DNA from: Phallusia mammillata | Taxonomy: Eukaryota | Direction: 5' to 3' | NCBI GenBank assembly: GCA_965637545.1 | Contig: OZ281495.1 | Coordinates: forward strand, 12,772,001-12,836,000 | DNA length: 64,000 bases | Part shown: piece by piece, positions 12,001-15,000 of the stretch | How the letters are laid out: the number at the start of each line of letters is the position of its first letter | Numbering within the stretch: position 1 is the stretch's first letter | Program-made: the position numbers

Positions 12001-15000
12001 CGTTATTGCCGAGAGCACGTTGTCGAAGTAGCGGCCATTAGCTGGTGTAGTTGCAGCGTCGACGACGATTGTCAGGTCCATAGGTTTCGGACATTTGTAG
12101 ATGGGTTCTGTTGGCCAAATAAGAAACTTTTGATCATGTATATTTCTGATATGAATAGTTCGTCACGGCTCCAATTACACAAAAATATGCTAATTAAACA
12201 CCAAAATAGCAACCCAGCTACATTTGACTCTGTGTTGTGAGAAAAAAACTGTCTAACAACTGGATAAGCACACTACTACAGCAAAAAAATAAACATCACA
12301 GGATTGAGGCTGTAAAACGACATAAAATCCGCCAAAATAAAGAATACATAGTTGACCCCTACTATTTTTATCAATAGTTCTGCATAATAAAAGTCGTTTA
12401 GTTCCAAAACAGTTTATACCCTTTTAAAAAGAATCAGCAAAGTATAAATGACCAACCAAACACGTGACACAGAATCCATTAAAAATGGCTTAAAAGGGGA
12501 TCTTGCGGCTTTAGATACTTTTTAAAACCACTACATTAGATCACCCAACGATACCTGGTGGTTCGACGATCGGTCGAGCACACGGAGCAGTGCAGCATTT
12601 GATACTAGCACTGTAGTTGTAACACCACGAGCCTTCTGCCTCCGACACATCAATGTGATAGCATTGTGGGAAGTCGTTAAGATTGCAACGAAGATTTGAC
12701 TGAAGTGTTCCCTGGTCACTCTGCAAAAAAATATGACTTTAAATAAATCAAATGAAACATAACGATACGACTTCGTTTTTAACACGAATGAAGCTGTTTA
12801 CAAGAGAGCATTTATAGCAGGAAATATGTACAAAACGTTAAAACAGTAAGGAGAACAAAAAGGGCACACATAATTGACAGTTAACGGTTTTGTAGAAACA
12901 TCGCAATGCGTTTTGTGAAGAGAGCCAACATAAAACTGAGTTTGGCAAACAGTGATTAATACAGCTGACTTTGGTGCTACGTTTGAAGTTAAATTTCAAA
13001 AATGGGTCCAAGAAAAAAACGTATATTCTTCACAAGTTTTTCGGAGTGTTTTTTGTTTTAAATGTTAAAAACATGCAAATTATCTCACCTCGCATTTTAT
13101 TCCGAGCCCAGTATACGATGGTCGACAGATGTCACTGAAGTTGTTTCTGTACGAAGCCCAACTCTCGAAGTCACCAACGTTTTCATGAGTCGGTTCATAG
13201 TTGCTCACCGGTTCTGGTTACATAAGTAGGTATCCGGTTATATAGCATAAAGGTCCAACAAACATAGAACAACGAGTGTACAAAAAACAATTGACTTAGA
13301 ACAAGATTGGGACTTGCAATTTAAAGGTGTTTGGGGGTATGGGTCTACCTACTGATGCGCTAGTTTACATACTCCATTTTTTGCCTTCTAACGCAGTGGT
13401 TGTTAACCTACAGTTAAGGGGCCGTGTGTCACGGTTTGCCTGCCTTGCATACACGTGAGAGTTCGGACACCTTACTTCTTAACTTGTTCTGTTGTATTTT
13501 TATATCAAGCCACACGCAGCTACCACACGTGGTGTGTTCAGCAACTCAATAATAGAATGAATGTCCCGTATGTAAACAGCATCACACCACATATCGGCAC
13601 AATCAGCTATGTGACGTAACAACGGTATGACGTACAACGAAGGGAAAAAAGGAGAACATTACTGTAAGGCAGAACATTACATTACTGACACCGTTGAATA
13701 TGCGACACCGTGGAATATGGACTAATTAGGTTAACTACATAACCCGTTTTATTGCATATAAAGCTTGTCAACCTAAATGTGCGATTAACCGGATTCGTCT
13801 GTAGTTTCTTAAGGAACATAAATGCAAAAACGGTTAAGCGTGTTTAACTTTCTAAAAAAGTTTTAAACTTTTATGATGCGAAAAAAAAATCCATCCTTTA
13901 TACAGCTGATAAGATCAAAAAGTGACGTGACTCACCCGTCCAGTAGCATTCGCACACCTCAGTGGTGCTAATCTCTGATGTCGTGGTCGTGTAAACACCA
14001 GGGGTCGTAGCTAAAAATGTGTAAAAGTTACTGGATACACACAGTGCTGGATTAAGGGTCTGCTGGCCTGTAGGCACAATTTATAAAGGGCCCGAAAATC
14101 AGGATTGCCAACTAAAAAAAATAGAATTATTAGTGTTGCCAAATCATTCTGCTGATTTTGAAGTGGCCTGGATTTTTGACTGGCCTGTAGGCACGTGCCT
14201 ACTTTGCCTAATGGTTAATCCGGCACTGGATACACAAAAGAGCAAGGTAGAAGGTGGACAGGAAAATGCAGACGGCGAACACAACTTTGTAAGTTTACCA
14301 TTTTAAACCAGCTTTGTTTTTGACAAAGCCAAATATATGTGTAAATATTACGTTGCTTCTGACAACTTTAGATGACATTGATAACAAACAAACAAACATG
14401 AAAGTAGAATATGTTGATGTTATTGCATTGAATCATGCTTCCTATAATGATGAAATTACAATGTTCTTCATAGTATACAAATCTTTTTCATGATGTTTCA
14501 TAAATCTATAAAATTGACAATTTATGTTTTGATTCAGTAACACACCCCAGTCCCTTTTATACAGTACAAGAAAATTTTCATAATGTTTGATGTTTCACGA
14601 ATCCATAACAATGACAAGTTATGCACTGGTCAGGTATTCAATAATACCTTACAATCCCTGACAACATAAACTTACTTCTGTGTGATGGTGGAACACAAAT
14701 TGCGTTAAAAACAGCGTTGACGGGTCCTGGGTTGTTTAAGTTGCTGTACCAGTTCACATAAGTTACTAGGCCGTGGAATGAAATCCGTTCCATCTCAGAA
14801 ATATTTGCAGCTAGTAAACCTACAGTGGCAATGTAAACTTCGCTACTTCGGTTCGTTCTTAACTCGTCAAATCGGCGAATCGGTTCGTCCAGAGAATCCT
14901 GTGGAACAAAAAAAATAGTCTGTTACTTCTGTTAAATTTTGCGTTCCTTCTGCTAAAGAAATTAAACCGTAATCATGATTTTTAGAATGGTGATAGTGTG

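What the first reader, a model, noticed from the sequence alone, without database searches (positions are those of the whole stretch)
12555..14010. Mucin CysD domain embedded inside a VWA array
SEEN: three exons between VWA19 and VWA20 encode CYWTEPVS...P...GDFE...C...IKC...C...C...CYNYSASIKCC. KNOWN: CysD (Mucin2_WxxW) domains interrupt the PTS regions of MUC2/5AC/5B and are absent from VWF. The C-mannosylation WxxW motif has become WTEP here. INFERENCE: either a relic of a mucin central region colonised by A domains, or a cross-linking module kept for net formation.
Basis: partly seen in the sequence, partly recalled or inferred. Interest (0 to 1): 0.65.

Follow-up and report, generated by a model that had tools for sequence, protein, structure and literature searches.

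The report
Lone CysD module in VWA-mucin gene
Three small exons of a giant mucin/von Willebrand factor-like gene encode one copy of the cysteine-rich CysD module of gel-forming mucins, placed among about twenty VWA domains; this is an unusual domain mix, not a new kind of module.

Summary
On the minus strand, three exons with canonical splice sites (13936-14010, 13089-13213, 12555-12720) read in frame with the exons on either side. Together they carry ten cysteines.

- **Exon C** is clearly the C-terminal half of a CysD domain. It ranks 1 of 3376 six-frame ORFs against a profile of 16 CysD domains from named fish mucins (E 1.2e-4), and 0 of 5000 shuffles reach its score. A profile-profile comparison gives 94.9% probability (E 4.4e-8).
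- **Exon B** matches the N-terminal half only weakly (P about 0.004-0.012), but in the right order. It carries GDxE followed 12 residues later by a cysteine.
- **Exon A** adds C-x-C-x-W-T, which is not significant by itself.
- **Cysteine spacing:** all ten cysteines are present, and 6 of 9 gaps fall in the fish range.

Pfam, the PDB and the ESM Atlas gave no CysD match for any single exon.

The host gene runs D1-D2-D3, then about 19 VWA units joined by short threonine-rich linkers, then CysD, a weak VWA, D4 and cysteine-rich C-terminal exons. The domain is intact and has two conserved relatives, so it is probably a working docking or cross-linking module rather than a relic. I rate it a new variant of a known kind.

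The parts
13936..14010 (-). Exon A. It encodes a 17-residue threonine-rich linker (TTPGVYTTTTSEISTTE), then V-C-E-C-Y-W-T: cysteines 1 and 2 and the only tryptophan left of the WxxW motif.
   Evidence: Searches give the sequence and splice sites. In one search, hhalign places CYWT on CysD columns 7-10, with P 0.39, which is not significant alone. flags the threonine-rich stretch.
13089..13213 (-). Exon B. It encodes the middle of the domain: (E)P in place of the second tryptophan, the GDFE motif, and cysteines 3 and 4.
   Evidence: 3.7 bits on HMM positions 14-41, P 0.004, with 45 of 5000 shuffles reaching it; hhalign columns 13-40, P 0.012. GD.E.{12}C occurs twice in 3376 ORFs against 0.075 expected, and in 14 of 16 fish CysD domains.
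12555..12720 (-). Exon C. It encodes the C-terminal half of CysD with cysteines 5-10, including the 12-residue Cys6-Cys7 loop YHIDVSEAEGSW and the ...YNYSASIKCCTAPC end, followed by a proline-rich tail.
   Evidence: rank 1 of 3376 ORFs, E 1.2e-4, 20.0 bits, HMM positions 60-100; 0 of 5000 shuffles reach its score; 94.9% probability, E 4.4e-8; hits to fish Muc5 proteins and to two fragments.
14676..14898 (-). Upstream exon, the C-terminal part of the preceding VWA unit (...AVFNAICVPPSHR). It ends in phase 1 and joins exon A in frame.
   Evidence: One search gives the sequence, with acceptor ccacag|GAT and donor AGAA|GTAAGT. Searches show VWA pieces of the same unit at 16031-16264 and 15423-15653.
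11932..12107 (-). Downstream exon, the start of the last, weak VWA-like unit ((E)PIYKCPKPMDLTIVVDAATT...). The 3' end of the exon is approximate.
   Evidence: One search shows acceptor ggccaacag|AA with a phase that fits exon C. One search gives Pfam VWA E 0.18, 12.5 bits, profile positions 1-52.
15423..47814 (-). VWA array of about 19 units joined by short threonine/proline/serine-rich linkers. It includes two large exon ORFs, 44596-47814 and 19645-22488.
48272..62254 (-). N-terminal VWD-C8-TIL assemblies (D1, D2, D'D3) of the same gene.
   Evidence: One search gives the Pfam VWD, C8 and TIL matches. In one search the C8 exon matches VWF (E 9.1e-28) and MUC2 (E 1e-26).
533..8117 (-). C-terminal part of the gene: VWD4 (7011-7265), C8 (4739-4921), VWC (3192-3473) and further cysteine-rich exons.
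   Evidence: The last cysteine-rich ORF, 533-787, had no Pfam match, so I did not confirm a cystine knot.

Best explanation
The three exons encode one intact, divergent CysD domain (Pfam family Mucin2_WxxW). It lies near the C-terminal end of the central region of a giant secreted protein of the VWF/gel-forming-mucin family that probably forms polymers.

**Shown**
- Exon C is homologous to the C-terminal half of CysD.
- The three exons map in order onto one CysD profile.
- They carry the family's ten cysteines.
- The second tryptophan of WxxW is replaced by proline.

**Inferred**
- The peptide folds into the small five-disulfide, calcium-binding beta-sandwich seen in MUC2 CysD1.
- It works as a non-covalent docking or cross-linking knot, as CysD domains do in mucins. 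It could bind copies of itself or the protein's own D assemblies, most likely through the conserved 12-residue loop between cysteines 6 and 7. That loop is the counterpart of the MUC2 loop that docks onto the filament bead.
- Without a WxxW motif it is probably not C-mannosylated in the canonical way.
For: **Exon C against CysD**
- phmmer of exon C against 1.84 billion representatives gave 10 hits at E <= 1e-3. Four look like animal proteins.
- Two of these are named fish mucins. Their 15 and 5 matched stretches equal their 15 and 5 CysD domains. P0007 carries five Pfam Mucin2_WxxW domains.
- The other two are short unnamed fragments, 40% and 38% identical to exon C in alignment A1, with all six cysteines kept.
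- A profile of 16 distinct CysD domains from 7 named fish proteins ranks the exon C ORF 1 of 3376 six-frame ORFs (E 1.2e-4). It scores none of the window's many other cysteine-rich exons above 9.7 bits.
- 0 of 5000 shuffles of exon C reach its score.
- A profile of exon C plus the two fragments, compared with a fish CysD profile, gives 94.9% probability and E 4.4e-8 over 47 columns.
- The same fish profile hits only solved CysD-bearing mucin chains in the PDB: 10 of 10 are MUC2, MUC5AC or MUC5B.

**Exons A and B**
- hhalign maps A, B and C to columns 7-10, 13-40 and 59-101 of one 106-column domain, in order.
- Exon B has P 0.004 in HMMER and 0.012 in hhalign.
- The motif GD.E.{12}C is in 14 of 16 fish CysD domains and occurs twice in 3376 window ORFs, once in exon B.

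**Cysteines.** There are ten, with gaps 1, 32, 10, 12, 7, 12, 8, 0, 3. Fish gaps are 2-3, 31-33, 7, 17-18, 7, 9-13, 8, 0, 3.

**Intactness.** Splice sites are canonical and the frame is continuous across five exons.

**Function by analogy (passages read)**
- MUC2 CysD1 is a beta-sandwich with two calcium ions. It is needed for filament formation and docks on VWD1/C8-2 (PMC7599080).
- The docking loop is the one closed by the C1365-C1379 disulfide (PMC11912381).
- In one search that loop is the 13-residue Cys6-Cys7 loop of MUC2, which contains FGNGPFG.
- The loop is 12 residues here and in both fragments, with an invariant H, G and W.
Against: - Pfam's own Mucin2_WxxW model matched 0 of 3 exon ORFs at E <= 10.
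- PDB phmmer gave no mucin hit for exon C and nothing for exon B.
- The ESM Atlas gave no usable hit for exon C or exon B.
- The fish hits owe their E-values to summing weak repeats, at 6.6-13.8 bits per domain. The six bacterial-looking repeat proteins in the same list, which I treat as false, show the same effect at 1.9-12.5 bits per positively scoring repeat.
- Exon B is not significant at window scale (rank 13, E 11). Exon A has no signal: 2854 of 5000 shuffles equal it.
- The family's name-giving WxxW motif is not met.
- Three of nine cysteine gaps lie outside the fish range.
- I tested no fold, no transcript evidence, no orthologue and no binding. The proposed function rests entirely on analogy.
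Confidence: 0.7

Rival explanations
1. It is a CysD-derived module with a new role. Only the C-terminal half keeps the family signature. The N-terminal half, which has lost WxxW and has changed loop lengths, has diverged, so the domain may serve as a rigid spacer or hinge between VWA units rather than as a mucin-type docking knot.
For: - WxxW is lost.
- Three of nine cysteine gaps lie outside the fish range.
- Exon B matches weakly and exon A not at all.
- Pfam is silent for every exon.
- The two closest relatives share a distinct ...YSA[SR][IV]KCC signature, whereas the fish domains mostly have YDYEIRVKCC.
Against: - All ten cysteines are kept, along with the GDxE-to-cysteine spacing.
- The Cys6-Cys7 loop is conserved in length and in three residues across the three sequences. 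That fits a retained interaction surface.
Confidence: 0.15
2. It is a functionless relic of an ancestral mucin central region, carried along in the VWA array.
For: - There is a single copy in a gene otherwise filled with VWA units.
- The WxxW hallmark is lost.
- The neighbouring last VWA unit is itself degenerate (Pfam E 0.18).
Against: - There is no stop, frameshift or broken splice site across the five consecutive exons.
- All ten cysteines are kept.
- 15 positions of exon C, including all six cysteines, are invariant in two fragments that are only 38-40% identical to it. That pattern fits purifying selection.
Confidence: 0.08
3. It is not CysD at all, but a chance resemblance of a cysteine-rich linker to the CysD pattern.
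For: - There was no Pfam, PDB or Atlas match for any exon.
- The library E-values for the fish mucins are inflated by repeats.
Against: - The reverse search is not inflated by repeats. It puts exon C first of 3376 ORFs, ahead of all other cysteine-rich exons.
- 0 of 5000 composition-preserving shuffles reach its score.
- The profile-profile comparison gives E 4.4e-8.
- The fish profile matches the single-stretch relatives P0009 (25.5 bits) and P0008 (19.0 bits). Of the six bacterial-looking proteins only P0003 appears at all, with a non-significant 1.1 bits (E 0.27 at Z = 10).
- The three exons map in order, with ten cysteines.
Confidence: 0.07

Closest known systems
CysD domains (Pfam PF13330, Mucin2_WxxW) of gel-forming mucins MUC2, MUC5AC and MUC5B and their fish Muc5/Muc2 relatives. 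Solved examples listed include 6tm6 and 7a5o (MUC2), 8oer (MUC5B) and 8ov0 (MUC5AC).
   Same: - It is about 100 residues long with ten cysteines, in the same order and largely the same spacing.
- It has GDxE followed 12 residues later by a cysteine, and the C-terminal C-7-C-loop-C-8-CC-3-C signature.
- It is preceded by a threonine-rich linker.
- Its host protein has VWD-C8-TIL assemblies at both ends.
   Different: - The second tryptophan of WxxW is a proline.
- Three cysteine gaps differ: 1 against 2-3, 10 against 7, and 12 against 17-18.
- There is a single copy.
- It is flanked by VWA units rather than long PTS regions, and sits close to D4 rather than just after D3.
- It is split over three exons.
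- Each exon alone falls below Pfam's reporting level.
von Willebrand factor
   Same: The overall plan is D1-D2-D'D3, then VWA domains, then D4 and VWC. The C8 exon matches VWF at E 9.1e-28.
   Different: - VWF has three A domains and no CysD or PTS (passages in PMC9169620 and PMC7599080).
- This gene has about 20 VWA units, threonine-rich linkers and a CysD.
- The closest solved relative of its VWA units is collagen VI alpha-3, not a VWF A domain.
Invertebrate mucin-like or hemolectin-type proteins with CysD inserted among F5_F8 (discoidin) domains, as described by Lang et al. 2016 (PMC4948705, passages read)
   Same: This is a precedent for CysD lying outside a long PTS region, among globular domains of a VWD-C8-TIL protein.
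   Different: The neighbouring globular domains here are VWA, not F5_F8. The Pfam scan of the 234 minus-strand ORFs of 50 residues or more found no F5_F8 domain.
Unnamed fragments P0008 (72 aa) and P0009 (59 aa) from the protein library
   Same: They are the closest relatives of exon C at 40% and 38% identity in alignment A1. They have the same six cysteines, the same 12-residue Cys6-Cys7 loop, and a ...YSA[SR][IV]KCC end. P0009 continues into a proline/threonine-rich tail.
   Different: They cover only the exon C part. Their organism and gene context are unknown and I did not pursue them.

Membership tests
CysD / Pfam PF13330 Mucin2_WxxW | Match to the curated Pfam model above its gathering score | tested here: inconclusive
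   I ran this exon by exon only. 0 of 3 exon ORFs matched at E <= 10, and pieces of 24-55 residues are too short for an 88-position model.
CysD / Pfam PF13330 Mucin2_WxxW | Significant similarity to domains that Pfam itself calls Mucin2_WxxW | tested here: met
   This is met for the C-terminal half: exon C ranks 1 of 3376 ORFs at E 1.2e-4, 0 of 5000 shuffles reach it, and the profile-profile comparison gives 94.9% and E 4.4e-8. The N-terminal half is only weakly supported: exon B has P 0.004-0.012 and exon A has none.
CysD / Pfam PF13330 Mucin2_WxxW | Ten cysteines (five disulfides) in the family's spacing | tested here: met
   The three exons carry ten cysteines (2 + 2 + 6). Six of nine gaps fall within the range of 16 fish CysD domains and three fall outside. 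I did not test disulfide connectivity.
CysD / Pfam PF13330 Mucin2_WxxW | WxxW motif near the N-terminus | tested here: not met
   The sequence reads C-Y-W-T-E-P, with proline in place of the second tryptophan. All 16 fish domains have W-S-x-W.
CysD / Pfam PF13330 Mucin2_WxxW | GDxE motif followed 12 residues later by cysteine 3 | tested here: met
   The motif is in exon B, in 14 of 16 fish domains, and occurs 2 times in 3376 window ORFs against 0.075 expected. That this motif contributes to calcium binding is my recollection, not a result from any call.
CysD / Pfam PF13330 Mucin2_WxxW | Small beta-sandwich fold with two bound calcium ions (PMC7599080) | not tested
   This needs the spliced peptide. 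I left out the joined step, so I made no structure prediction or fold search.
CysD / Pfam PF13330 Mucin2_WxxW | Location within PTS regions of a VWD-C8-TIL mucin | tested here: inconclusive
   The host has VWD-C8-TIL assemblies. A 17-residue threonine-rich linker precedes the domain. The flanks, however, are VWA units, and the downstream linker is proline-rich and short.
Gel-forming mucin (gene level) | [quoted passage not shown] | tested here: inconclusive
   D assemblies, D4-type VWD, C8 and VWC were found. PTS is present only as 16 short stretches of 20-106 residues between VWA units. Pfam did not confirm a cystine knot for ORF 533-787.
von Willebrand factor (gene level) | Central region of three VWA domains without PTS or CysD | tested here: not met
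   The gene has about 20 VWA units, threonine-rich linkers and a CysD.

The most novel reading that the evidence does not exclude
The gene preserves, or has re-created, an intermediate between gel-forming mucins and von Willebrand factor. Its central region holds PTS linkers, a CysD and a long VWA array side by side. If orthologues place this architecture deep in animal phylogeny, the VWA region of VWF would have arisen by A domains invading a PTS/CysD mucin core, not by wholesale replacement. The retained CysD would then mark a docking step in polymer packing that VWF later lost.
Probability: 0.12. Interest if true: 0.7.

Novelty: new variant of a known kind. Interest (0 to 1): 0.42.

Why it matters
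Passages in PMC6109156 and PMC9169620 describe mucins and VWF as differing in what fills the centre of a shared scaffold: PTS, with CysD in mucins of the MUC2 and MUC5 types, versus VWA in VWF. A gene carrying all three elements shows that they are not mutually exclusive.

It also offers a natural test of what a lone CysD does when it is not embedded in a long glycosylated region. And it carries a CysD without the WxxW motif, which bears on whether that motif, and C-mannosylation, is needed for the fold.

On its own this is a modest finding. Domain shuffling in giant extracellular proteins is common, and the module belongs to a known family.

Tried and rejected
**Per-exon searches that found nothing useful**
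- Pfam at E <= 10 gave no Mucin2_WxxW match. The only hit was a chance Peptidase_C69 match (E 0.18) on the exon A ORF.
- PDB phmmer on the exon C ORF gave 3 hits at E 0.18-1.1, none of them a mucin. The exon B ORF gave 0 hits.
- The ESM Atlas gave no usable hit for exon C or exon B.
- The search for homologous proteins with the exon C ORF ('longer') gave 1 candidate, and none scored.
- The same search with alignment A1 ('longer') gave 95 candidates, and none scored. Both searches covered only proteins up to 2000 residues, so a full-length relative of this giant gene could not have been found.

**Library hits I rejected**
- P0002, P0003, P0005, P0006, P0010 and P0011 look bacterial. Their scores are sums of weak repeats (1.9-12.5 bits for the positively scoring ones).
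- None carries Mucin2_WxxW. Of the six, the fish CysD profile reports only P0003, at 1.1 bits and E 0.27 with Z = 10.
- P0004 is over 5000 residues and could not go through Pfam. I located its 15 CysD domains with a seed from P0007 instead.

**Candidate second CysD piece.** ORF 28249-28416 on the minus strand scored E 0.19. I rejected it because it has no partner exons and looks intronic.

**Uninformative or failed steps**
- The motif C.W[ST] gave 10 matches against 9.7 expected.
- The first jackhmmer run for VWA units found only 2. A looser run and a four-copy profile still miss diverged units, so the VWA count is approximate.
- One search used the wrong frame and gave nothing.
- One paper was not held, and one search term was too long.

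**Not done**
- I did not run Pfam, a structure prediction or a fold search on the joined three-exon peptide.
- I did not search for orthologues.
Supplementary figure S4 of PMC4948705, which shows invertebrate architectures, may already include VWA-plus-CysD proteins.
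Full report
**What is in the sequence**

The window has no N and is 38.8% G+C. The finding lies on the minus strand. Reading together gives three exons with canonical splice sites.

| Exon | Coordinates | Acceptor | Donor | Peptide |
|---|---|---|---|---|
| A | 13936-14010 | ttttag\|CT | ACGG\|GTGAGT | TTPGVYTTTTSEISTTEVCECYWT |
| B | 13089-13213 | aaccag\|AA | GAG\|GTGAGA | a split-codon E, then PVSNYEPTHENVGDFESWASYRNNFSDICRPSYTGLGIKCE |
| C | 12555-12720 | ttgcag\|AGT | CAG\|GTATCG | SDQGTLQSNLRCNLNDFPQCYHIDVSEAEGSWCYNYSASIKCCTAPCARPIVEPP |

- The phases fit the neighbours. The upstream exon 14676-14898 (...AVFNAICVPPSHR) ends with one base, A, that completes a Thr codon with the CT of exon A. 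The final G of exon C completes a Glu codon with the AA that opens the next exon at 12107 (EPIYKCPKPMDLTIVVD...).
- Five consecutive exons therefore read through without a break.

**The host gene**

I scanned all 234 minus-strand stop-to-stop ORFs of 50 residues or more against Pfam: 118, 114 and 2. The scan shows one very large gene.

- **N-terminus.** An EGF-like exon lies at 63750-63935, and VWD-C8-TIL assemblies run from 62.2 to 48.3 kb.
- **Centre.** A long VWA array includes two big exons with four units each: 44596-47814 (1073 aa) and 19645-22488 (948 aa).
- **C-terminus.** A further VWD lies at 7011-7265, C8 at 4739-4921 and VWC at 3192-3473, followed by more cysteine-rich exons.
- **VWA count.** I count about 19 units upstream of the finding. 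Fourteen have Pfam or profile support, two I saw only by eye in the 948-aa ORF, and three are weak at E 0.11-0.59.
- **Downstream unit.** It has only a weak Pfam VWA match (E 0.18).
- **Linkers.** The VWA units are joined by short linkers rich in threonine, proline and serine. There are 16 such stretches of 20-106 residues on the minus strand and 3 on the plus strand. One of them is the 17 residues that open exon A.
- The central region is therefore a hybrid of PTS-like linkers and VWA domains, not a pure A-domain array.
- **Not human.** The nearest named relatives of the module are fish mucins at 31-36% identity. To my knowledge no human gene has this layout.

**Is it a CysD?**

I did not run the joined three-exon peptide through any tool, so Pfam on the spliced peptide, structure prediction and fold search were left out.

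Direct library look-ups on single exons were blank:
- Pfam gave no Mucin2_WxxW match for any of the three exon ORFs at E <= 10.
- The PDB gave no mucin match.
- The ESM Atlas gave no usable hit.
- Two word-indexed searches limited to proteins of 2000 residues or fewer gave nothing.

The exhaustive phmmer search of exon C against 1.84 billion representatives gave 10 proteins at E <= 1e-3.
- **Six look bacterial.** They are repeat proteins that I treat as false positives.
- **Two are named fish mucins**:
  - P0004 is mucin-5AC-like from Synchiropus splendidus (E 7.7e-8).
  - P0007 is Mucin 5.1 from Echeneis naucrates (E 1.5e-6).
- **Two are short unnamed fragments**, P0008 and P0009 (E 3.8e-5 and 9.4e-5). 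phmmer reports 45% and 44% identity for them, and alignment A1 gives 40% and 38%.
- **Register with CysD.** The matched stretches in the fish mucins coincide with their CysD domains, 15 and 5. Pfam calls five Mucin2_WxxW domains in P0007.
- **Caveat.** Each fish CysD contributes only 6.6-13.8 bits. The E-values come from summing repeats, exactly as for the bacterial false positives. This search alone is not decisive.

Reverse and profile tests do not have that weakness.
- I built a profile from 16 distinct full-length CysD domains of 7 named fish proteins. Of 33 domains found in 8 fish proteins, I dropped 8 partial ones, which removed P0012 altogether, and collapsed the duplicates. Six of the eight proteins came, and all six carry PF13330.
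- Against all 3376 six-frame ORFs of 12 residues or more, the exon C ORF ranks first: E 1.2e-4, 20.0 bits, HMM positions 60-100, with six of six cysteines aligned. The next ORF scores 9.7 bits. None of the window's many other cysteine-rich exons (TIL, C8, VWC) scores higher.
- 0 of 5000 composition-preserving shuffles of exon C reach its score.
- The same profile recognises P0009 (25.5 bits) and P0008 (19.0 bits). Of the six bacterial-looking proteins it reports only P0003, at a non-significant 1.1 bits.
- A profile of exon C with P0008 and P0009, compared with a fish CysD profile, gives 94.9% probability and E 4.4e-8 over 47 columns.
- The fish profile finds only solved CysD-bearing chains of MUC2, MUC5AC and MUC5B in the PDB, 10 of 10. 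It is therefore a true CysD profile.

The N-terminal half is less certain.
- **Exon B** scores 3.7 bits (P 0.004, 45 of 5000 shuffles) on HMM positions 14-41. hhalign gives P 0.012 on columns 13-40. At window scale this is not significant (rank 13, E 11).
- **Exon A** gives no signal. 2854 of 5000 shuffles equal it, and hhalign aligns only CYWT to columns 7-10 (P 0.39).
- **Order.** The three exons map in order and almost without gaps onto one 106-column domain.
- **Motif.** GD.E.{12}C was taken from the fish set, where it occurs in 14 of 16 domains. It occurs twice in 3376 window ORFs against 0.075 expected, once in exon B.
- **Cysteines.** The exons carry ten (2 + 2 + 6) with gaps 1, 32, 10, 12, 7, 12, 8, 0, 3. 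Fish gaps are 2-3, 31-33, 7, 17-18, 7, 9-13, 8, 0, 3. Six of nine gaps are in range.

The WxxW motif reads W-T-E-P. The first tryptophan and the Ser/Thr are kept, and the second tryptophan is a proline. All 16 fish domains have W-S-x-W. So a defining feature of the Pfam family is not met. I file the domain as a divergent CysD, not a typical one.

**How it probably works**

These points come from passages I read.
- MUC2 CysD1 is a small beta-sandwich with two calcium ions. MUC2 filaments did not form without it, and it docks on VWD1 and C8-2 of neighbouring subunits. That paper calls CysD modules specific to mucins as against VWF (PMC7599080).
- The docking loop is the one closed by the C1365-C1379 disulfide. 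It is four residues shorter in MUC5AC CysD1, which was not seen docked. The fold family is described as tightly cross-linked by five conserved disulfides (PMC11912381).
- In the alignment this loop is the stretch between cysteines 6 and 7. It is 13 residues in MUC2, with two Phe and a Pro, and 9 residues in MUC5B.

In this gene the loop is 12 residues (YHIDVSEAEGSW). It is also 12 residues in P0008 and P0009, with an invariant His, Gly and Trp.

I infer that the domain is a folded, disulfide-locked knot that uses this loop to bind another part of the polymer, either its own D assemblies or another copy of itself. That would help packing or non-covalent cross-linking. This is inference by analogy, and I tested no binding.

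With proline at the +3 position, canonical C-mannosylation is unlikely. The same paper reports that the MUC2 CysD tryptophans were not mannosylated in the recombinant protein, so the loss may matter little.

**Relic or working part?**

The frame and splice sites are intact and all ten cysteines are kept. Fifteen positions are invariant among three sequences that are only 38-40% identical. This argues for constraint, but I could examine no orthologue, so the point remains open.

**Comparison with what is known**

- Lang et al. 2016 (PMC4948705, passages) place the origin of CysD in Bilateria. They find it within PTS regions in deuterostomes and inserted among F5_F8 domains in several protostome groups. 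CysD outside long PTS regions therefore has a precedent.
- PMC6109156 and PMC9169620 (passages) describe mucins and VWF as having acquired different central modules, PTS or VWA.
- Four full-text searches turned up no paper describing a CysD inside a VWA array. I judged this from the search listings and from passages of six of the listed papers.
- I could not query domain-architecture databases, so the combination may already be catalogued.

**Verdict**

This is a real, intact, single CysD-type module. Homology of its C-terminal half is well supported, and its N-terminal half fits but is weakly supported. It lacks the WxxW hallmark and sits in an unusual hybrid PTS/VWA context of a VWF/mucin-family gene. 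I rate it a new variant of a known kind, of moderate interest.

Noticed in passing
window 41455-42777 (-): A 441-aa ORF has a strong reverse-transcriptase match (Pfam RVT_1, E 2.1e-33). It is a retroelement lying in an intron of the VWA array, on the same strand as the gene.
   Followed up: no
window 45301-45618 (-), inside the exon ORF 44596-47814: This is the longest PTS-like linker (106 aa). It holds three tandem copies of an 18-residue unit, TPTPTSTIGTATGTTGAV, a small mucin-style repeat between two VWA units.
   Followed up: partly
window 19645-22488 (-): The closest solved relative of the VWA units is collagen VI alpha-3 (9han_C, E 4.8e-37), which itself has a VWA array. No VWF A domain reached E <= 1e-3.
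   Followed up: no
window 44596-47814, 19645-22488 and 11932-12107 (-): Many VWA units lack a complete DxSxS metal-site motif at the first strand, for example NIMFLLHSTNQ, DIYVIVDDAIG and DLTIVVDAATT. They may therefore not bind ligands through a metal ion.
   Followed up: no
window 28249-28416 (-): This ORF has a weak match to the middle of the CysD profile (E 0.19, HMM positions 29-54). It is also the best non-self tblastn hit of exon B (E 0.23). It has no partner exons nearby, so I took it as chance.
   Followed up: partly
window 9699-9949 (-): Overlapping ORFs in all three frames read variations of PEYSIIRNIRLSGIFVYPEYS. This indicates a tandem DNA repeat in the intron between the last VWA unit and the D4 region.
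   Followed up: no
window 24158-24322 (+): There is a simple repeat on the opposite strand that reads PLTPPLTPPLT.... It is probably a microsatellite and not coding.
   Followed up: no
window 533-787 (-): The last cysteine-rich ORF of the gene, where a C-terminal cystine knot would be expected, had no Pfam match at E <= 0.01. The dimerisation module is therefore unconfirmed.
   Followed up: no
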